DNA from: a virus
Taxonomy: Duplodnaviria > Heunggongvirae > Uroviricota > Caudoviricetes
DNA length: 17,126 bases
Reading direction: 5' to 3' (one strand)
IMG/VR virus record: IMGVR_UViG_2778261418_000005
Location: 1-17,126 of that record
Shown here: positions 10,984 to 17,126 of the stretch, piece after piece
Layout: each line of letters starts with the position of its first letter
Numbering within the stretch: position 1 is the first letter of the stretch
The notes under the pieces: generated by a model
The model's database searches: none
What the model saw: the letters and a program-made list of their open reading frames with translations, nothing else
Told to the model about the DNA's origin: nothing
Program-made: the position numbers and the translations under genes

Positions 10984-12333
10984 ATGGCTACGTGGCAACA
11001 GGGTATTAATTCTGGTGGTTTTCTGGCTGGCATCGGTACGCAAAATGAGAATGCGCCAAAGGCAAGCGACATTAACGCAACGCTTGGTCTGATCCGCGAA
11101 AACAATGAACTGGCTCGCTCAGGTGCAAATAACATTGGTCTGACCGCGTTACGTGGTCTGGCTGGAGTTGCTGATATTTACAATCAGGAACAGCAACAGA
11201 AAGCGATTAGTGCGTTCAATAAGGTTCACGCTGATGCATGGGCTTCTGGTGATCCATCGGGACTATTTAAGTTTGCCCAGGAAAATCCAGCGTTTGTTGC
11301 ACAGGCACAACAGGCGTTTTCCGGTCTTAATGATCAGCAACGCAACGATATGGGCGATTTAGCCATGAGGGCTAACGTCGCTCTTTCTCAGGGACCGGAA
11401 GCCTACAGTAAATTCATTACTGACAACAAGGACAGGTTAAATCGCGTGGGGGCGAATGCTGACTGGATGATTCAGACAGGTATCCAGAATCCAGAGCAGC
11501 TATCACACATGCTGACTACTATGTCTCTCGGTGCGCTTGGACCAGAAAAGGCGTTTGCTGTTCAGGATAAGATGGTTGGTCGCCAGCAGGAGCAGCAAAG
11601 AATTAACGAAACCATTCGCAATAATGACATGACGAATGCGAGGGCTATTAGGGGGCAGGATCTTTCCTATAAGGCTCAAATGGCAAGACTGAATCACGAC
11701 AAGTATGTGTTTAAGCAGTCACAGGCGGCCCTTGAAAGAGCAGGACAACCTCAGGATATGGATGTTTTGTCTCTTAACTCACAGATAGCAGCGACGGGAA
11801 TTGATCCGCTAACCGGTAAAGCTGCAACGTCAGCCAGAATGTCTCAGGCTAAGAGATGGCTTGATGGCAACAATAATTACAACAATGCGTTGATTACTGG
11901 TGAGCGAGGGATAGAGAAAATAGATTCTTTGCTTGGTAAGAAGGAGCTTGAAGGTATCGGTCGCTTCGAAGGAAGAAATATAGATGGCTTCACAAGTGCT
12001 GAAGGGCTTGCAAACCGTAATGCGATAGAAGAATTAAAGTCGGGTGCGTTTGTCCAGAACGTGCAGACTATGCGAGGTATGGGTAGCCTCTCCAATGCTG
12101 AAGGACAAAAACTGGAAAACCTTATCGCGAAACTCGATATAACACAGCCTGAAGAGGTCGTCAGAAAACAGTTATCTGAAATCCGATCGCAATATTCTGT
12201 ATTTCAAAAGGTTGCAGCAAGGGAGGCTGAATCAATGGGATATAGTTCATCAGGTTATGACACATATGTTAGTGAGCGAAAATCAGGAAGCGACAGCAAT
12301 AAGTCCGGTTTCTCGTCTTTATGGGGTGATTAA
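10984..12333 (+). CDS. Ejection (internal virion) protein, P22 gp20 equivalent, 449 aa
   Basis: A 449-aa ORF in the gp20 position, same strand, 10-nt gap after the gp7 equivalent. Confidence 0.8.
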
Positions 12334-14492
12334 TGGCTAAAGCATGGAAAGATGTTATCGCTTCTCCACAGTATCAGGCGTTAACTGAAGAACAGAAAGC
12401 ACAGGCTCAAGCGCAATATTTTGATGAGGTTGTTGCCCCTAAGGCTGGTGACAAATGGGCTGAAGCAAGAGATCAGTTTTATGCAGCATACCCTCCGCAT
12501 CAGCAGCAGAAAGAAGAACCATCATTGATGCAACAAGCTGGCGATTGGCTCACAGGTGGTCAAAGTGCAGGGCAAATTGCAGAACAGGCTGGTCGTGGTC
12601 TGGTAAACATACCATTTGACGTATTGCAGGGTGGCGCAAGTCTGATTAATGCAATCAGCCAGGGGCTTGGTGGCCCCAAGGTTTTGGATGATGTTTATCG
12701 CCCTGTCGATCGACCGACAGACCGTTGGGCGCAAGCCGGTGAAACATTTGGTGGGTATCTCCTGCCAATTGGCACAGCGGCAAAAGCTGCTGGAGCGACA
12801 GCAAAGCTCGCAGGAGACATCGGTTCCGCAGGAAACATGATTGCAGGTTCTCTTGCTGATGCTGCAAATCAGGAGGGTGATTTTGCACAAAATGCTGCCA
12901 TTAACGGTGGTATCAATTTTGGTGCTCAAGGCGTTCTTTCAGGTGTCGGGCGCGTTATTGCGCCAAGGGTTTCACAGGCTCTTGGTGGTGCAGCACTGAA
13001 TTCTGCTAATGATGTTTCCAGGATGGCAAAGTCAGGTGCTGGGCGTCAGTCAATTGCCAGTCAGGCCGCTAATGTGTCCGAAGATGTAGCAAAAGCGGCT
13101 GAGTCTGCTGGAATTGATATAAACGCATTAACACCAGGAATGCGATCTGGAAGTCGTGGAATTGCACAAGCCGAAGGCGCATTGGCATCAACACCAGGAA
13201 TTGTTCAGGACGCCCATCAGGCAGCATTTAACGAAATATCATCAAAGTTAAGTCGAAACCTTGATGAATTTGGGGCCGCATCTGGAACGGCATCAGAAAA
13301 AAGTGCGGCTATAAAACAAAGGATTCTTCAAAATCTTGATCAGATGAAGGATGCCGAGCGCGCGGCATGGGATGACGTGCGGTCAACAATGCCAAATCAA
13401 AAAGCAAGAATGCTAAATGGTAATGCCGTTATTCAGGCAGAGCGATCTGCCGGCATACCGCTTACTCCTGAAATGAAACAGTTTGTTCAGGCAAACAATC
13501 AAGGTGGAGTAACATTTGATGGCATGAAAGCATGGAGAGCGAAATTTGCTGATGCGGAGCAAAAATATAAGCGTAGCGGAGAGGCAAATGCGGCAAGGAG
13601 AGCAGGGGAAATACGCCGGGCAATTACTGATGATATGCGCACAATGGCGGAAAACGGCGGATTTCTTGATGACTGGCAAAAAGCTAATGATCTGTCTAAA
13701 GCGAGGTTATCAGCACAAGAGAGTGCAGAGTCTGTTTTCGGGCGTGATTTGGCAACAGATGCACTGATTACGAATGGAGTAAAATCCCTTCAATCATCGT
13801 CAGCTAAAGGTCTTAATGGTCCTGCTGGATTCCATTCTATGATCCGCGCTCTGCCAGAATCAGAGCGTGTTCCTGCTATATCATCAATGTTGAAGGATGC
13901 CATCTCGCATGGTGTACGTGGTGGCAAAGCTGATGCAGCAGGAATTAACCATATCGCAGAGATACTCACTCCACAAAATGTAAAAGCCATTAGCCGATAT
14001 TCCTCAGAGCTTGGAAGAATTGCTGATGCATATGGCACTCTTGCAAGAGCAGCAGTGAAACCTCAGCAGTATATTGAAAGAACAGGGAGAACTGCCAATG
14101 TACTACGCGATCTGGATGCCGGTTTATCCAACATCACATCAGCAGTGTTAAATGCAATTGCCAACTCAACATCAGGTGCCATTGTTGGTGGCGCTGGAGG
14201 GGGCATTGCAGGCGCTGCCGTGGGTGCTTTAGTTGGCGCTGGGTTAAAAGGCGCTGTATCTAAAATTGCCACCACACGTAGTGGTCGATATGCGATAGAG
14301 AAAGCTGTTCAGGAAGCCACCAAAGCAGTAAGAGCTGGCGGAAGTAAAGAAGCATTAGCGGCGGCGGAACGCAGATTTATGGCAAATAAAGCCGCCGTAA
14401 AAGCAATACGTGATGCAGTTGGAAACGAAGAGTTCAATCGCTTAGCGAGGGCTGGCATTGTAGCGTCGCTAAGCGGAATAGCACAGGAGTAA
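12333..14492 (+). CDS. Ejection (internal virion) protein, P22 gp16 equivalent, 719 aa
   Basis: A 719-aa ORF in the gp16 position; translationally coupled to the gp20 equivalent (TAATG at 12331-12335); glycine-zipper-like hydrophobic segment near the C-terminus ([27 protein letters not shown]). Confidence 0.8.
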
Positions 14493-14816
14493 TTAATCAT
14501 CCATGGATGGATTGAGCTTATCTCGTGTTGATGTGGCGATTTGCCCTACATTCCTAAGCCAAGATTTCAAATCCTTGATATTGTCATTGATTTCATGAAT
14601 ATCTTCTTTTTTTAGTCTGTTAATATTATTCTCAATAATTTCAATGGATTGCTCAATATCAGATATAGTGAATGATAGTTTGTTCTTCTCATCTTTTATT
14701 GAGTTTTTAAGTGCTTCGTTCTCAGTCTTGAGGTCAGATATCTTTTGTTTTAAAGATGCCAGTTGGTACTGAACCACAATGAGTGCGATAGCTATCACGA
14801 TAACTGTTGTATACAC
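14493..14816 (-). CDS. Hypothetical membrane-anchored coiled-coil protein, 107 aa (accessory/moron gene)
   Basis: GTG start at 14816 preceded by AAGGAGG with a 5-nt spacer; N-terminal hydrophobic helix (YTTVIVIAIALIVV) followed by a K/E/N/I-rich heptad-like segment; strongly AT-rich compared with the flanking structural genes; stop codon abuts the gp16-like stop (TAATTA at 14490-14495). Confidence 0.55.
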   Translation of the reverse strand: MYTTVIVIAIALIVVQYQLASLKQKISDLKTENEALKNSIKDEKNKLSFTISDIEQSIEIIENNINRLKKEDIHEINDNIKDLKSWLRNVGQIATSTRDKLNPSMDD

Positions 14817-14933
14817 ACCAACCTCCTTAGTTTTGAGCAGGATACCATGAAAAAAGTAAACATCTTTTGCCTACTTCACATTTGAATGGTTTGTCATTAG
14901 GATGTTTCCGGTTTTTTAAATATGGAAATTGAT

Positions 14934-15353
14934 ATGAAGAGGATTATTGGCGTCGTTGCTGGCGCTATGATGTTATCTGGGTGCGCAACTATTGTTGGTG
15001 ATGAAACGCAACTTGTGCAAGTGAACAGCAACCCTTCCGGTGCGAGCTTTAAGGTAAAAGATGAATCAGGCGTGATTGTTGCGCAAGGCAAGACTCCACA
15101 AGGAGTAACTCTTGCCAAGTCAGATGGTAGTTATTTTGGCAAAAAGAGCTACCAGATCACTATGGAAAAGGATGGGTACGAACCAGTTACCCTGCCAATC
15201 AAAGCCAATGCTAATGGTTGGTATATTGGTGGAAACCTTGTGTTTGGTGGGTTAATCGGTTGGCTTGCTGTTGATCCATTTAATGGTGGGATGTATACAT
15301 TGAAGCCAAAAGAGGCAAATGCATCTCTTATACCTTCTACGAAGCAAGATTAA
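14934..15353 (+). CDS. Putative lipoprotein with a PEGA-like domain and a glycine-rich C-terminal segment, 139 aa
   Basis: Signal peptide MKRIIGVVAGAMMLSGC with lipobox LSG-C; a following segment (NPSGASFKV...GKTP...KDGYEPV) resembles the PEGA domain pattern; C-terminal GWYIGGNLVFGGLIGWLAVDPFNGGMY. Start at 14934 preferred over the track's 14922. Confidence 0.7.
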   Translation: MKRIIGVVAGAMMLSGCATIVGDETQLVQVNSNPSGASFKVKDESGVIVAQGKTPQGVTLAKSDGSYFGKKSYQITMEKDGYEPVTLPIKANANGWYIGGNLVFGGLIGWLAVDPFNGGMYTLKPKEANASLIPSTKQD

Positions 15354-15358
15354 GAAAT

Positions 15359-15386
15359 GAAACCCACCGTCAGGTGGGTTTTTTAT
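15359..15386. terminator. Bidirectional intrinsic terminator between the convergent lipoprotein and peptidase genes
   Basis: AAACCCACC-GTCA-GGTGGGTTT hairpin with a T-run downstream on the + strand (TTTTTAT) and a T-rich run on the - strand (TTTCATTTCTT); lies between the stops at 15353 (+) and 15410 (-). Confidence 0.6.
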
Positions 15387-15409
15387 AAGGAGTAATCATG
15401 ATTTACCCA

Positions 15410-15946
15410 TCAAACAACCCACCAGTTTGCCTGATTGGATACCAGCCTTGCAGTTTTTATGGAATTAATTATGCCATGCTCAAGAGCCTTGTTAGCATCC
15501 AAAATGGTCGAGTCTGCTATCAGGGATGCCCACCTAATATGGGTTCCGATGTCGATATTGAACGCCTCAACGAAGCGATCAAGATCGTTATCGAGGCATT
15601 TCCCGTACTCTCTCAATCTGGCATGGTCGGCGGCTGGGGTGGCAAAGCCCCATAATAGAGGATGTAACAGGAATCTTGATAATGGGTTTGCGAAACGTTC
15701 TGAGCCAGCCAGGAAAACGATATTAGCTATGGATTCAACATTGCTTATGTTGTGAGTTCTAACGGTAACAGGGAGTGACTTAAGAAAGTTATACGCAGTA
15801 AAGCCAGCGGCAGTTTCCCCTCCCTGACTTGATATATGGATATTTAATTCAGTTGCGCCCTGAGATAATGCGGTGAGACAGTGGTTCTGAAGTTGCCCAA
15901 CAGTGGCAGTGTTAACGGGGCATAAGAAATGAATTGTGTGCAGCAT
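15410..15946 (-). CDS. Minimal ClpP-fold (peptidase S14-like) serine peptidase, 178 aa
   Basis: Collinear match to the ClpP core as I recall it: NIHISSQGGETAAGFTAYNFL against ClpP YINSPGGVITAGMSIYDTM; SIANIVFLAG against catalytic-Ser SMGAFLLTAG; LLHPL against MIHQP (His); a D-S-T segment near the ClpP Asp position; C-terminal HGIINSI against YGLVDSI. Start codon overlaps the stop of the upstream Mnt-like gene (TAATG). Confidence 0.7.
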   Translation of the reverse strand: MLHTIHFLCPVNTATVGQLQNHCLTALSQGATELNIHISSQGGETAAGFTAYNFLKSLPVTVRTHNISNVESIANIVFLAGSERFANPLSRFLLHPLLWGFATPAADHARLREYGKCLDNDLDRFVEAFNIDIGTHIRWASLIADSTILDANKALEHGIINSIKTARLVSNQANWWVV

Positions 15947-16182
15947 TATTTTTCATCCTTACCATACATGGTCTTTAGCGTCTCAAGCAGCGCCTCCCTG
16001 AATTTGTCAGCCTCTTTCTGAGCAAATTCATTGCTATTAAGCGATCTACCACAAACAGCATCTTCGATAATCTGTATTATTTCAGCATTCATGGAACGCT
16101 TGTTATGTTGCGCCCTAGCTTTAACCTTTGCCTTTAACTCTTTGGAAATTCTAATATTTATTTGCGGCTCTTCGCGTGACAT
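15946..16182 (-). CDS. mnt: Mnt-like ribbon-helix-helix repressor, 78 aa
   Basis: N-terminal RHH pattern (INIRISKELKAKVKARAQHNKRSMNAEIIQIIEDA) similar to my memory of P22 Mnt; divergent from the arc-ant genes as in P22 immI; GGAGG 4 nt upstream of the ATG. Confidence 0.82.
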   Translation of the reverse strand: MSREEPQINIRISKELKAKVKARAQHNKRSMNAEIIQIIEDAVCGRSLNSNEFAQKEADKFREALLETLKTMYGKDEK

Positions 16183-16205
16183 ATCACCTCCATAGCATTT
16201 TGGTG

Positions 16206-16234
16206 ATATTACTATTGCATCACTGCGATCACAA
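16206..16234 (-). promoter_or_regulatory. Candidate Pmnt promoter (leftward)
   Basis: On the - strand: -35 TTGTGA (16229-16234), 17-bp spacer, -10 TAATAT (16206-16211); about 25-30 nt upstream of the mnt-like start. Confidence 0.4.
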
Positions 16235-16243
16235 TGGTATAAC
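16215..16243 (+). promoter_or_regulatory. Candidate Pant promoter (rightward), overlapping Pmnt
   Basis: -35 TTGCAT (16215-16220), 17-bp spacer, TG-extended -10 TATAAC (16238-16243); about 28 nt upstream of the arc-like start. Confidence 0.45.
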
Positions 16244-16253
16244 GGTTATACCA
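16235..16253. promoter_or_regulatory. Perfect 19-bp palindromic operator candidate (Mnt-like operator)
   Basis: TGGTATAAC-G-GTTATACCA is exactly self-complementary around the central base; overlaps the candidate Pant -10 and start site, as the Mnt operator does in P22. Confidence 0.55.
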
Positions 16254-16270
16254 AATTGATTGGAGGTAAT

Positions 16271-16444
16271 ATGATAGTCAAGTCAGACGCACCAAAGTAC
16301 CCTTTGCGCATCCCATTAGAGGTTAAGTTAGCAATCGAGAAGTCAGCGAAAGAAAATGGTCGCTCAATAAATACCGAGATGGTAATGCGGTTGGTGGATA
16401 GTTTAAGGCGGGATAGTTCTAAAGGTAATCTAGCAAAAAGTTGA
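16271..16444 (+). CDS. arc: Arc-like ribbon-helix-helix repressor, 57 aa
   Basis: [38 protein letters not shown] aligns in length and pattern with my memory of P22 Arc (MKGMSKMPQFNLRWPREVLDLVRKVAEENGRSVNSEIY); GGAGG at 16262-16266; directly upstream of ant. Confidence 0.8.
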
Positions 16445-16507
16445 AGCCCCAACTGCGGGAACAGTCAGGGCTTCGGTTGTCAGTAAATCCGTGGAGAAAA
16501 ACCAACA
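16433..16507 (-). ncRNA. Candidate sar-like antisense small RNA covering the ant ribosome-binding site and start codon
   Basis: On the - strand: a TATACT -10 element (16513-16518) inside the ant 5' end, then about 70 nt downstream a hairpin (16443-16474) followed by a T-run (AACTTTTTGCTA). The size and placement parallel the roughly 69-nt sar RNA of P22. Promoter -35 is weak; ends are approximate. Confidence 0.4.
16443..16474 (-). terminator. Hairpin acting as a terminator on the - strand only (arc-ant intercistronic region)
   Basis: GAAGCCC...GGGCTTC stem with an inner ACTG/CAGT stem; followed by a T-run only in the - orientation, so rightward arc-ant transcription would read through. Confidence 0.5.
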
Positions 16508-17126
16508 TGAATAGTATAGCAATTTTAGAAGCAGTGAACACCTCTTACGTACCATTCAACGGTCAGCAAATTATCACCGCCATGGCTGCCGGAGTTGCAT
16601 ATGTTGCGATGAAGCCAATCGTTGAAAACCTTGGAATGAGCTGGTCAACGCAGCAAACAAAACTCATGAAGCAGATTAGCAAATTCAACTGTGTTCATAT
16701 GAACATGGTTGCTGCTGATGGGAAGCTTCGTAAGTTACTCTGCCTTCCTTTGAAGAAGTTAAATGGATGGCTGTTCAGCATCAACCCTGAGAAAGTTCGT
16801 GCTGACATCCGTGATAAACTTATTCAGTACCAGGAAGAATGCTTTACTGTGCTGCATGACTACTGGACGAAGGGAAAGGCAGAAAATGCACGTAAGAAAA
16901 CATCTGTTGATGACAGGACTCCGCTTCGTGATGCTGTAAATATGCTGGTCAGCAAAAAGCATCTAATGTACCCAGAAGCTTATGCAATGATTCATCAGCG
17001 TTTCAATGTGGAAAGTATTGAAGAGCTTGATGCATCTCAGATACCGAAAGCCGTAGAGTACATCCACAGGGTAGTGCTTGAAGGTGAGTTCATTGGCAAA
17101 CAAGAGAAGAAAACCAACGAGCTTTC
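16507..17126 (+). CDS. ant: Antirepressor Ant, N-terminal part (ORF continues past the window end)
   Basis: Open frame from the ATG at 16507 to the window end with no stop (206 codons); N-terminus [21 protein letters not shown] matches my memory of P22 Ant; located immediately after arc as in P22 immI. Confidence 0.8.

What the first reader, a model, noticed from the sequence alone, without database searches (positions are those of the whole stretch)
14493..14816. AT-rich gene for a membrane-anchored coiled-coil protein abutting the gp16-like gene tail-to-tail
Seen in sequence: a 107-aa ORF on the - strand with a GTG start behind a near-consensus AAGGAGG, one N-terminal hydrophobic helix and a K/E/N-rich heptad-like remainder. 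Its stop codon is directly adjacent to the gp16-like stop (TAATTA, 14490-14495), with no terminator between the convergent genes. Inference: small single-pass membrane proteins of this kind in temperate phages are often exclusion or abortive-infection factors; convergent transcription into the late operon could also make its expression and late transcription mutually interfering.
Basis: partly seen in the sequence, partly recalled or inferred. Interest (0 to 1): 0.6.

Follow-up and report, generated by a model that had tools for sequence, protein, structure and literature searches.

The report
hkcB: membrane protein in sieA slot
This is a real, conserved but uncharacterised prophage gene (hkcB) for a small membrane-anchored coiled-coil protein; it occupies the same slot and uses the same start signals as the phage P22 superinfection-exclusion gene sieA, so it is a good but untested candidate for a new exclusion factor.

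Summary
A 107-aa ORF lies at 14493-14816 (-), with a GTG start 5 nt after AAGGAGG, one N-terminal hydrophobic helix and a long amphipathic helix. GC is 34% against 49% for the window. Its stop abuts the gene-16 stop (TAATTA), and no terminator-like site was found nearby.

It is not new as an ORF. It is hkcB of HK620/CUS-3 and gp14 of epsilon34 (phrog_5962, function unknown). It is under purifying selection (dN/dS 0.13-0.35, dS often above 1). It occurs only in P22-like prophages and always sits 0-4 nt from one type of gene 16.

New here: the 34 nt ending at its GTG (TGGTATCCT, then AAGGAGG, then GTG) match the sequence upstream of P22 sieA at 33 of 34 positions. In IMG/VR the same block precedes at least 12 unrelated ORF families, 11 of them membrane or secreted proteins. 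SieA is the only one characterised. hkcB is therefore one allele of a swappable cassette in the sieA slot.

It shows no sequence similarity to SieA and has 1 TM helix against 3.

An exclusion role is plausible (about 0.45) but untested. The missing terminator fits the late-operon read-through to the tailspike gene reported for P22. Interest is moderate.

The parts
14493..14816 (-). hkcB coding sequence, 107 aa. It is the homologue of CUS-3 HkcB, epsilon34 gp14 and HK620 HkcB (phrog_5962).
   Evidence: ORF. tblastn identity is 99.1% to epsilon34 gp14, 97.2% to CUS-3 HkcB and 56.5% (residues 16-107) to HK620 HkcB. phrog_5962 E=1.4e-58. dN/dS is 0.13-0.35.
14814..14847 (-). 34-nt 'adaptor' block TGGTATCCTGCTCAAAACTAAGGAGGTTGGTGTG. 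It shares 33 of 34 positions with the sequence upstream of P22 sieA. The same block precedes at least 12 unrelated ORF families in P22-like (pro)phages.
   Evidence: P22 sequence, alignment. IMG/VR scan, ORF classification. Also matched in E. coli genomes and phage JEP4.
14839..14847 (-). Candidate extended -10 promoter element TGgTATCCT. This is an inference; no usable -35 element is seen.
   Evidence: It is the 5' end of the conserved block, while the DNA further upstream varies freely between loci. The consensus promoter scan did not flag it.
14822..14828 (-). Shine-Dalgarno sequence AAGGAGG, 5 nt before the GTG start (14814-14816).
   Evidence: Read directly. Conserved in 7 of the 8 loci aligned; CUS-3 has AAGGGGG.
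14757..14813 (-). Codons 2-20, the single transmembrane helix (YTTVIVIAIALIVVQYQLA). There is no K or R before it; K23, K25 and K30 follow it.
   Evidence: Hydropathy and charge counts. Conservation of V7 I8 A9 I10.
14514..14762 (-). Codons 19-101, a long amphipathic helix or coiled coil. a-positions are L19 I26 N33 I40 L47, then I51 I58 I65, then I73 I80 L87 A94 L101. N33 is invariant.
   Evidence: AlphaFold2 helix 2-101. Register, periodicity. Only generic coiled-coil matches in Pfam and PDB.
14496..14570 (-). Codons 83-107, the family signature LKxW[LVI]xNVGxIAxSTRDKxNPSxD. It is the best conserved part of the protein apart from the TM helix.
   Evidence: Alignments. Still recognisable in the distant homologues P0022 and P0024. 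For this segment dN/dS is 0.07-0.55, below 0.35 in most pairs, with dS 0.2-2.7.
14490..14495 (.). TAATTA, the two stop codons of the convergent genes back to back with no intergenic base.
   Evidence: The same 0-nt junction is seen in 12 of 13 tabulated loci and in 25 IMG/VR loci. The gap is 3-4 nt in the distant homologues.
12333..14492 (+). Gene-16 homologue, an ejection (DNA-transfer) protein of 719 aa. It has the 'H-type' C-terminus ..[44 protein letters not shown], to which hkcB is always linked.
   Evidence: 98% identical to CUS-3 gp16. C-termini tabulated. PF26808 hits on the homologues.

Best explanation
hkcB is a genuine 'moron' gene of a P22-like (Lederbergvirus) prophage. It occupies the sieA slot: directly after ejection-protein gene 16, on the opposite strand, at the start of the variable 'ant moron'.

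**Shown here**
- It is read from a GTG 5 nt after AAGGAGG.
- That GTG ends a 34-nt block, and 33 of its 34 positions are shared with the sequence upstream of P22 sieA.
- The block acts as a shared expression and recombination adaptor, behind which unrelated small envelope-protein genes are swapped.

**Inferred**
- Transcription starts from an extended -10 promoter (TGgTATCCT) inside the block. Expression is low and constitutive from the prophage, as for sieA.
- The product is a single-pass inner-membrane protein. Residues 2-20 span the membrane. Residues 19-101 form a roughly 12-nm parallel coiled coil, probably a dimer because an invariant Asn33 sits at a core position.
- The conserved C-terminal motif WLxNVGxIAxSTRDKxNPS is the working end.
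- The positive-inside rule (no K or R before the helix, three just after it) predicts N-out/C-in, so the rod would be cytoplasmic.

**Most likely function (inferred, untested).** It is a superinfection-exclusion or defence factor acting at the inner membrane. It would be a non-homologous analogue of SieA, which blocks DNA delivery through the gp7/gp20/gp16 conduit.

**The tail-to-tail junction.** The junction lacks a terminator. This fits the P22 model, in which the late transcript reads through this region to reach the tailspike gene.
For: **Real gene**
- The 107-aa length is conserved from 99% down to 53% identity.
- dN/dS is 0.13-0.35, with dS often above 1 or saturated.
- It is intact in 72 complete E. 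coli genomes, and about 80 more carry the HK620-type allele.

**Identity**
- It is hkcB/gp14 and matches phrog_5962.

**sieA slot**
- The P22 map shows sieA directly after gene 16, on the opposite strand, with an annotated promoter.
- The 45 nt upstream of the hkcB GTG differ from P22 at two positions. HK620 hkcB carries the P22 sieA upstream region over about 110 nt.
- Leavitt et al. inserted P22 sieA with 85 bp of upstream DNA containing the putative PsieA into galK, and this gave strong exclusion. [quoted passage not shown]

**Cassette behaviour**
- The block precedes SieA, HkcB and at least 11 other unrelated ORF families in more than 120 IMG/VR contigs. Of the 13 families, 11 have TM helices or signal peptides.
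- Sequences upstream of the block reassort freely between cassettes.

**Architecture**
- One hydrophobic helix and the charge asymmetry.
- Single long helix in AlphaFold2, pLDDT 80.
- Heptad register with an invariant Asn at an a-position.
- Only coiled-coil-type sub-threshold matches.

**Link to the SieA target**
- hkcB and its most distant homologues always lie 0-4 nt from an H-type gene 16.
- SieA escape mutations map to the C-terminal regions of gp16 and gp20 (PMC10883804).

**Read-through**
- Late transcription through the ant moron is described for P22 (PMC2629481).
Against: - There is no functional, transcript or protein evidence for hkcB in anything I could search.
- It has no sequence similarity to SieA, and its architecture differs (1 TM helix against 3).
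- It lacks SieA's FxRYPxEAxxFNK motif.
- It matches no PADLOC, Pfam or NCBIfam family above threshold.
- A shared slot and promoter show shared regulation and mobility, not shared function. The other cassettes are all uncharacterised, so 'defence hotspot' rests on one characterised allele.
- The tight linkage to H-type gene 16 can be explained by descent alone. With no spacer there is nowhere to recombine, and H-type gene 16 also occurs with other cassettes or with none.
- The -35 region of the promoter annotated in P22 is not conserved in the window, and the promoter scan did not call a promoter for hkcB.
- The topology is a rule-based inference, not a prediction from a trained tool.
Confidence: 0.45

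Rival explanations
1. Abortive-infection or membrane-damaging effector. The coiled coil oligomerises the TM helices, and on a trigger from an infecting phage the protein depolarises the inner membrane and kills the cell instead of blocking DNA entry.
For: It is a small single-pass protein with an oligomerising rod, AT-rich and moron-borne. The slot is rich in small membrane proteins. In the CUS-3 arrangement it follows a YafO-toxin-like gene on the same strand.
Against: A single TM helix with no polar face is a poor pore former. No sensor domain is present. There is no similarity to known Abi or defence effectors. The only characterised allele of the slot, SieA, blocks injection and leaves cell growth essentially unaffected (PMC10883804).
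Confidence: 0.15
2. Lysogenic-conversion factor aimed at the host, not at phages. A membrane-anchored coiled coil would mimic or bind host bitopic coiled-coil proteins (FtsB/DivIC/FtsL-like or YhcB-like) and so modulate division, envelope stress or fitness.
For: Sub-threshold matches cover the TM helix plus the first heptads: DivIC PF04977 (E=2e-4, 21.5 bits) and FtsL NCBIfam models (E=0.006-0.016). The gene is stably kept in lineages such as UTI89.
Against: All these scores are below the curated cut-offs and resemble dozens of other coiled-coil hits. FtsB and FtsL have N-in/C-out topology with a positive N-terminus, the opposite of the charge pattern here (established knowledge). The family is confined to P22-like prophages and always lies next to gene 16, which points to phage-related biology.
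Confidence: 0.15
3. Lytic-cycle helper specific to H-type gp16. For example, it could be a membrane 'immunity' or holding factor that keeps newly made gp16 from damaging the producer cell's inner membrane.
For: hkcB is strictly linked to H-type gene 16 at every level of divergence. Its conserved C-terminal motif is encoded directly beside the conserved gp16 C-terminus. sieA transcripts are reported to rise during induction (PMC10883804).
Against: H-type gene 16 works without hkcB. Phage Dewey has no moron at all, and other H-type loci carry the 140-aa, 149-aa or 68-aa cassettes instead. The gene is antisense to the late operon and uses the sieA-type signals.
Confidence: 0.1
4. The main role is regulatory at the RNA level. 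Convergent transcription from the hkcB promoter into gene 16 would tune late-operon read-through or tailspike dosage, and the protein would be secondary.
For: The 3' ends are back to back with no terminator. [quoted passage not shown]
Against: Strong purifying selection acts on the amino-acid sequence while synonymous sites are free. The hairpin inside the gene-16 3' end is neither conserved nor compensated. A perfect Shine-Dalgarno sequence is kept.
Confidence: 0.05

Closest known systems
HkcB of coliphages HK620 and CUS-3, and gp14 of Salmonella phage epsilon34 (phrog_5962, 'unknown function')
   Same: It is the same gene. Identity is 97-99% to CUS-3 HkcB and epsilon34 gp14, and 51% over the full length to HK620 HkcB (56.5% over residues 16-107 by tblastn). 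Length, position and the 0-nt junction with gene 16 are the same.
   Different: Nothing of substance. The neighbours upstream differ: a lipoprotein gene here and in epsilon34, a YafO-like gene in CUS-3, hkcC in HK620. The central third of the protein is of the 'CUS-3 type' rather than the 'HK620 type'.
P22 SieA, the inner-membrane superinfection-exclusion protein, types A-C (Leavitt et al. 2024, PMC10883804)
   Same: Same slot and orientation in P22-like prophages. The promoter-proximal, Shine-Dalgarno and GTG block shares 33 of 34 positions. Both are inner-membrane proteins with a conserved C-terminal motif predicted to be cytoplasmic. Both are physically linked to the gp16 gene, whose product is implicated as a SieA target.
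   Different: No sequence similarity. 107 aa with 1 TM helix plus a coiled coil, against 162-164 aa with 3 TM helices. No FxRYPxEAxxFNK motif. Linked to H-type rather than P-type gp16. No exclusion phenotype is known.
Bitopic TM-plus-coiled-coil proteins: FtsB/DivIC/FtsL, and Rz-type i-spanins
   Same: An N-terminal membrane helix followed directly by a heptad-repeat helix. Weak profile matches to DivIC, FtsL and Rz-like PHROGs.
   Different: All scores are below the thresholds. The charge pattern predicts the opposite topology. No embedded or adjacent o-spanin gene was seen among the ORFs of 40 aa or more, and the gene is not in the lysis cassette. The C-terminal signature has no counterpart in those families.
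Other small membrane proteins of temperate phages that block DNA entry (HK97 gp15, T4 Imm, lactococcal Sie2009). Recalled from general knowledge and from the reference list of PMC10883804.
   Same: Moron-type genes expressed from the prophage, encoding small inner-membrane proteins.
   Different: No homology was tested or expected. Their targets are long-tailed-phage tape-measure or host proteins, not the P22-type ejection-protein conduit.

Membership tests
HkcB / phrog_5962 | Full-length significant match to the family profile | tested here: met
   phrog_5962 E=1.4e-58, residues 1-107 on profile positions 3-109 of 109.
HkcB / phrog_5962 | Close identity to the named members (CUS-3 HkcB, epsilon34 gp14, HK620 HkcB) | tested here: met
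   97.2%, 99.1% and 56.5% (residues 16-107) by tblastn. Alignment (51% to HK620 over the full length).
HkcB / phrog_5962 | Position: convergent with gene 16 of a P22-like (pro)phage and abutting it | tested here: met
   0-nt junction in the window and in 12 of the 13 tabulated loci. 25 IMG/VR loci show the same.
SieA (types A-C) | Detectable sequence similarity to SieA | tested here: not met
   BLASTP against P22 SieA (type A): best local match 8 of 18 residues, E=0.047 for a single comparison. Types B and C were not tested.
SieA (types A-C) | Three (type A) or four (types B, C) predicted transmembrane helices | tested here: not met
   Only one hydrophobic segment; the second-best 19-residue Kyte-Doolittle mean is 0.3. 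The SieA description is from PMC10883804.
SieA (types A-C) | Conserved motif FxRYPxEAxxFNK near the C-terminus | tested here: not met
   Absent from the 107-aa sequence (read). The only proline is P103, in NPS.
SieA (types A-C) | Location between genes 16 and 9 of a P22-like prophage, antisense to the late operon, behind the sieA upstream signals | tested here: met
SieA (types A-C) | Blocks DNA injection by P22-like phages | not testable with these tools
   Needs plating, lysogenisation or K+-efflux assays.
DivIC/FtsB (PF04977) and FtsL | Score at or above the curated cut-off | tested here: not met
   PF04977: 21.5 bits against 28.9. FtsL TIGR02209: 15.1 against 42.45.
Rz-type i-spanin | Significant profile match, a partner o-spanin lipoprotein gene embedded or adjacent, and location in the lysis cassette | tested here: not met
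   Only E of about 1e-3 to Rz-like PHROGs. No other ORF of 40 aa or more on the same strand within the gene; shorter ORFs were not examined. The gene lies in the ant moron, not the lysis region.
Parallel coiled coil (structural class) | Continuous helix with hydrophobic a/d core positions | tested here: met
   Helix 2-101. Register with two discontinuities and a/d occupancy up to 0.875. Strong amphipathic periodicity: 0 of 2000 shuffles reach it at 3.6, but the 3.5 period alone is not significant. The oligomeric state was not tested.
Known anti-phage defence systems (PADLOC-DB 2.0) | Match to a defence-protein model beyond coiled-coil noise | tested here: not met
   Best hits have E of 6e-4 or weaker, all to the coiled-coil arms of JetC, LmuB and PbeC.

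The most novel reading that the evidence does not exclude
The sieA slot of P22-like prophages would be a multi-allelic exclusion locus. One 34-nt promoter/RBS/start adaptor drives at least 13 unrelated small envelope proteins. Each would travel with a particular C-terminal type of the ejection protein gp16.

HkcB would then be a new, non-homologous exclusion protein. It would work from the cytoplasmic face of the inner membrane and recognise the conduit built by H-type gp16. Its two divergent central alleles would set specificity.

This would extend 'SieA blocks the ejection-protein conduit' from one protein family to a whole class of conduit-targeting defences, matched to ejection-protein variants.
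Probability: 0.25. Interest if true: 0.65.

Novelty: new variant of a known kind. Interest (0 to 1): 0.42.

Why it matters
The ORF itself has been catalogued since 2001 with no function, so finding it is not news.

What matters is the context shown here.
- The only characterised gene of this slot, sieA, is one of many interchangeable cassettes behind a shared expression block.
- hkcB is one of the more frequent alleles. It is present in about 3% of complete E. coli genomes, including UTI89-type strains.

If HkcB and its slot-mates are exclusion factors, they would form a ready-made panel of natural inhibitors of the podovirus DNA-delivery conduit, a poorly understood step of infection. They would also help explain why gp16 and gp20 are among the most variable virion genes of this group.

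The tests are simple: single-gene expression plus plating of CUS-3, HK620, epsilon34 and P22 hybrids that already exist.

Tried and rejected
- **Remote homology.** I searched Pfam, NCBIfam, PADLOC, PDB sequences, 5.8 billion clustered proteins and a profile search of 1.84 billion representatives. Only the narrow family itself and generic coiled coils came back.
- **Species-representative genomes.** A scan with the family alignment found nothing.
- **SieA homology.** Rejected.
- **Spanin reading.** Rejected: weak scores, no partner gene among ORFs of 40 aa or more, wrong location.
- **Hidden terminator.** RNA folding of the hkcB-sense strand downstream of the stop gave a 10-bp hairpin inside gene 16 (14441-14476; z = -2.0). 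Across 13-24 H-type loci the left arm varies without compensation, and third-codon-position entropy there is unremarkable. Rejected as a conserved structure.
- **Rfam.** It found only sar RNA at 16439-16506 and nothing near hkcB.
- **Conserved partner gene.** Rejected. The upstream neighbours are a lipoprotein, KilA-N, P63C, YafO-like or other genes in different loci.
- **Literature.** Searches for hkcB function, an HK620 exclusion phenotype or a described 'sieA hotspot' found nothing beyond the 2008 epsilon34 genome paper and the 2024 SieA paper. Hofer et al. 1995, which defined PsieA, and Clark et al. 2001 (HK620) are not held, so earlier remarks on the shared boundary sequence may exist.
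- **Not attempted.** A fold search of the model was skipped because a single helix gives meaningless matches. A complex prediction with gp16 was skipped because the tool returns no interface measures.
Full report

Yes.

- The ORF lister gives a 107-aa ORF at 14493..14816 on the minus strand with a GTG start.
- In the sequence the GTG is at 14814-14816. A perfect AAGGAGG is at 14822-14828, 5 nt upstream. An in-frame TAG lies 16 codons further up, with no other start codon in between.
- The gene-16 homologue (12333..14492, plus strand) ends in TAA at 14490-14492. The minus-strand TAA of the ORF is 14493-14495. The TAATTA junction with zero intergenic bases is exactly as described.
- A consensus scan of 14000-16600 finds no terminator-like hairpin near the junction on either strand.
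- The ORF has 33.6% GC against 48.5-48.6% for gene 16 and the whole window.
- There is a single strongly hydrophobic segment at the N-terminus. The rest is rich in I, K, L, N, S, D and E.
- AlphaFold2 with a 14-sequence alignment predicts one unbroken helix over residues 2-101, mean pLDDT 80.
- A heptad register can be traced from residue 19 to 101 with two discontinuities.
- The overall hydrophobic period is 3.6 rather than 3.5. Power at 3.6 was reached by 0 of 2000 shuffles; power at 3.5 was reached by 266 of 2000. 'Heptad-like' is therefore fair locally but not as a global statement.

**2. Is it a gene?**

Yes.

- Homologues keep the length of 107 aa from 99% down to 53% identity.
- Pairwise dN/dS is 0.13-0.35 where dS could be estimated, and dS often exceeds 1 or is saturated. 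This holds for the TM, coil and C-terminal parts taken separately in most pairs.
- It is intact in 72 of 5426 complete E. coli genomes. About 80 more carry the HK620-type allele. All copies are chromosomal and annotated 'hypothetical protein'.

**3. What is it called?**

The window is the late operon plus the 'ant moron' of a P22-like (Lederbergvirus) prophage.

- The ORF is 99% identical to gp14 of Salmonella phage epsilon34 and 97% to hkcB of coliphage CUS-3. It is 51% identical over the full length to hkcB of HK620 (56.5% over residues 16-107 by tblastn).
- It matches PHROG 5962 ('unknown function') at E=1.4e-58.
- The 2008 epsilon34 genome paper lists it as a gene of unknown function homologous to hkcB (PMC2629481).
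- The ORF as such is therefore already known. The family is very narrow:
  - 21 clusters were found in 5.8 billion proteins.
  - A profile search of 1.84 billion representatives adds only two distant relatives, P0022 and P0024.
  - Species-representative genomes contain none.
- No Pfam, NCBIfam, PADLOC or PDB family is matched beyond generic coiled-coil noise.

**4. The context that gives it meaning**

In P22 the gene directly after gene 16, on the opposite strand, is sieA.

*The shared block*
- I compared the DNA upstream of the start codons. The 45 nt before the hkcB GTG differ from P22 sieA at two positions, and the last 34 nt (TGGTATCCTGC-CAAAACTAAGGAGGTTGGTGTG) differ at one.
- HK620 hkcB carries the P22 sieA upstream region over about 110 nt.
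- Leavitt et al. inserted sieA with only 85 bp of upstream DNA, containing the putative PsieA, into galK and obtained strong exclusion. [quoted passage not shown]
- The same 34-nt block, at 100% identity, precedes an unannotated 62-aa two-helix ORF in phage JEP4 and in E. coli prophages.

*The IMG/VR survey*
- A scan with the block returned more than 120 contigs.
- The ORF that starts at the shared GTG falls into at least 13 unrelated families: SieA, HkcB in two allelic forms, and 11 others. Of the 13, 11 have transmembrane helices or signal peptides.
- Apart from SieA, none has a known function. One, the 68-aa cassette, matches the uncharacterised Pfam family YobH.
- Upstream of the block the sequence reassorts freely: each cassette is found with three or four different upstream regions.
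- The conserved block starts precisely with TGgTATCCT, an extended -10-like element, and the -35 region is not conserved. I therefore infer an extended -10 promoter with a leader of about 18 nt. The consensus promoter scan did not flag it.

*Linkage on the other side*
- On the gene-16 side the cassettes are not free. In every tabulated locus and every interpretable IMG/VR locus, hkcB sits 0 nt from an 'H-type' gene 16, whose product ends in ..[44 protein letters not shown]. In its most distant homologues the gap is 3-4 nt.
- SieA and the 62-aa, 129-aa and 116-aa cassettes go with the P22-type ending (..LLRLANTK..RPLLA..).
- The window's gp16 is identical to JEP4's for about the first 160 residues and then drops to about 20%. 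The unit that is exchanged is therefore [gene 16 from about codon 170 to the end, plus the cassette].
- H-type gene 16 also occurs with other cassettes or with none. The dependence is one-way and may simply reflect descent with no room for recombination.

**5. Anatomy of the protein**

- Residues 2-20 form the only membrane helix.
- No family member has K or R before the helix, and HK620 and P0022 have a Glu there. All have two to four K or R just after it. By the positive-inside rule this predicts N-out/C-in, so the rod would be cytoplasmic. This is an inference; no trained topology predictor was available.
- Core a-positions are L19 I26 N33 I40 L47, then I51 I58 I65, then I73 I80 L87 A94 L101.
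- N33 is invariant across the 14 aligned members. A buried Asn at an a-position is the classic GCN4-type device for a parallel, in-register dimer (established knowledge). The oligomer state was not tested.
- The C-terminal 25 residues carry the family signature LKxW[LVI]xNVGxIAxSTRDKxNPSxD. It is still visible in the distant homologues, and synonymous sites there are free.
- The central third exists in two divergent forms with conserved ends. Between the window and a Salmonella prophage whose gp16 is 90% identical, dS is 1.8 in the centre and 0.4-0.6 at the ends. That pattern indicates an intragenic mosaic rather than local positive selection.

**6. How it most likely works**

*Shown*
- It is a conserved coding gene.
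- It occupies the sieA slot and carries the sieA-type start signals.
- It behaves as a cassette.
- It has a TM-plus-long-helix architecture.
- It is strictly adjacent to one type of gene 16.

*Inferred*
- Low-level expression from the prophage.
- Inner-membrane location with a cytoplasmic coiled coil.
- An anti-phage role at the DNA-entry step, analogous to SieA. SieA is thought to interfere with the gp20/gp16 conduit, and its escape mutations lie in the C-terminal regions of gp16 and gp20 (PMC10883804).

I put about 0.45 on this functional reading. The rivals are detailed in their own section: an abortive-infection membrane effector (0.15), a host-directed conversion factor or FtsB/DivIC mimic (0.15), a helper or immunity factor for H-type gp16 during lytic growth (0.10), and a mainly RNA-level regulatory role (0.05).

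The absence of a terminator fits what is described for P22. [quoted passage not shown] In the window hkcB is followed by the ant-moron genes. The tailspike gene lies just beyond them in the closest relatives. The hkcB transcript itself has no intrinsic terminator. The one hairpin downstream is not conserved, so Rho-dependent termination within antisense gene 16 is the likely end (inference).

**7. Comparison with what is known**

- It is a member of the HkcB/phrog_5962 family.
- It is not a member of the SieA family. Similarity, number of TM helices and the cytoplasmic motif were all tested and not met. It does share SieA's slot, signals and membrane location, so 'works like SieA' remains open.
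- It resembles FtsB/DivIC/FtsL and Rz i-spanins only in general architecture. Scores are below the cut-offs, the predicted topology is opposite, and no partner gene was found.

**8. Novelty and verdict**

[quoted passage not shown] I did not find the following in the literature available to me:
- the shared 34-nt adaptor linking hkcB to sieA and to at least 11 other cassettes;
- the one-sided linkage of cassettes to gp16 C-terminal types;
- the predicted topology and signature motif.

Clark et al. 2001, who described 'boundary sequences', and Hofer et al. 1995 could not be read.

The functional guess is reasonable and now better grounded, but unproven. Interest is moderate (0.42): this is not a surprise to a P22 specialist, but it is a cheap, well-defined experiment with existing strains.

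Noticed in passing
window 14814-14847 (-); L005:2501-2534, L006, L007; L008:2829-2862 (-): A 34-nt block (extended -10-like TGgTATCCT, AAGGAGG, GTG) is shared at 33 of 34 positions or more by P22 sieA, hkcB and at least 11 other unrelated ORF families in P22-like (pro)phages. DNA upstream of it reassorts freely, while DNA downstream stays linked to one gene-16 type.
   Followed up: yes
L005:2315-2503 (-) (phage JEP4); the same in L006 and L007: An unannotated 62-aa ORF with two hydrophobic helices (MKKKFVNVAKCAIFIFF...) sits in the sieA slot behind the same start block. It matches phrog_21338 but is not annotated in these GenBank/RefSeq records.
   Followed up: partly
L008:2829-2831 (P22 sieA start): The SieA paper calls the sieA start codon uncertain (162 or 164 aa). 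The GTG that gives the 164-aa form is the one conserved with all other cassettes, 5 nt after AAGGAGG, which favours the 164-aa start.
   Followed up: partly
window 14922/14934-15353 (+): A divergently transcribed gene for a probable lipoprotein (MKRIIGVVAGAMMLSGC..., lipobox LSGC). It is the homologue of epsilon34 gp15 (phrog_6823) with a weak PEGA-domain match. It is another envelope-directed moron of unknown function.
   Followed up: partly
window 15410-15946 (-) and 15946-16182 (-): A 178-aa ClpP-family protein gene (PF00574, E=4.5e-12) directly follows an Mnt/Arc-type repressor gene, and its start overlaps that gene's stop by one base. It replaces the plain mnt arrangement of epsilon34 and is also seen in APEC IMT5155 and phage phiv205-1. 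A protease-like gene inside the immunity-I region is unusual.
   Followed up: no
window 16439-16506 (-): sar antisense RNA (Rfam RF00262, 95.6 bits). It is followed by the 5' part of an ant antirepressor gene that runs off the window end, 99.4% identical to epsilon34.
   Followed up: yes
L002:1034-3193 against L003:1025-3193: PMC10883804 states that the CUS-3 and HK620 gp16 proteins are only 26% identical. BLASTP of the GenBank sequences gives 77% over the full length. The divergence is concentrated between residues 280 and 650.
   Followed up: partly
window about 14577-14699 (hkcB codons 40-80): The central third of HkcB exists in two very divergent allelic forms, while the TM helix and the C-terminal motif are conserved. 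Synonymous divergence is also much higher in the centre, so this is an intragenic mosaic.
   Followed up: partly
L002:3540-3959 (-) (CUS-3 ECRS218_0008): In the CUS-3/UTI89-type arrangement hkcB lacks the extended -10 block. It is preceded on the same strand by a YafO-toxin-like gene (PF13957, E=3e-11) and a 199-aa unknown gene, so it is probably co-transcribed with them there.
   Followed up: no
window 14441-14476: A 10-bp inverted repeat lies inside the last 50 nt of gene 16 (CGCTTAGCGA...TCGCTAAGCG). It would form a hairpin on the hkcB transcript just after its stop. It is neither conserved nor compensated in other H-type loci.
   Followed up: yes
L143:2501-2584 (E. coli HCM-22C-2): A prophage remnant in which a deletion joins a truncated replicative helicase gene to the first 84 nt of hkcB, keeping the lipoprotein, mnt, arc, ant and tailspike genes.
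   Followed up: no
IMG/VR cassette 'MLEIVVLALGISCCVLYAGLAALKKQVKEL...' (109 aa, phrog_8100): Another sieA-slot cassette has the same TM-plus-coiled-coil plan and a weak N-terminal similarity to HkcB (33% over 67 residues, E=6e-6 in a single comparison), but a different C-terminal half. It may share the N-terminal module.
   Followed up: partly
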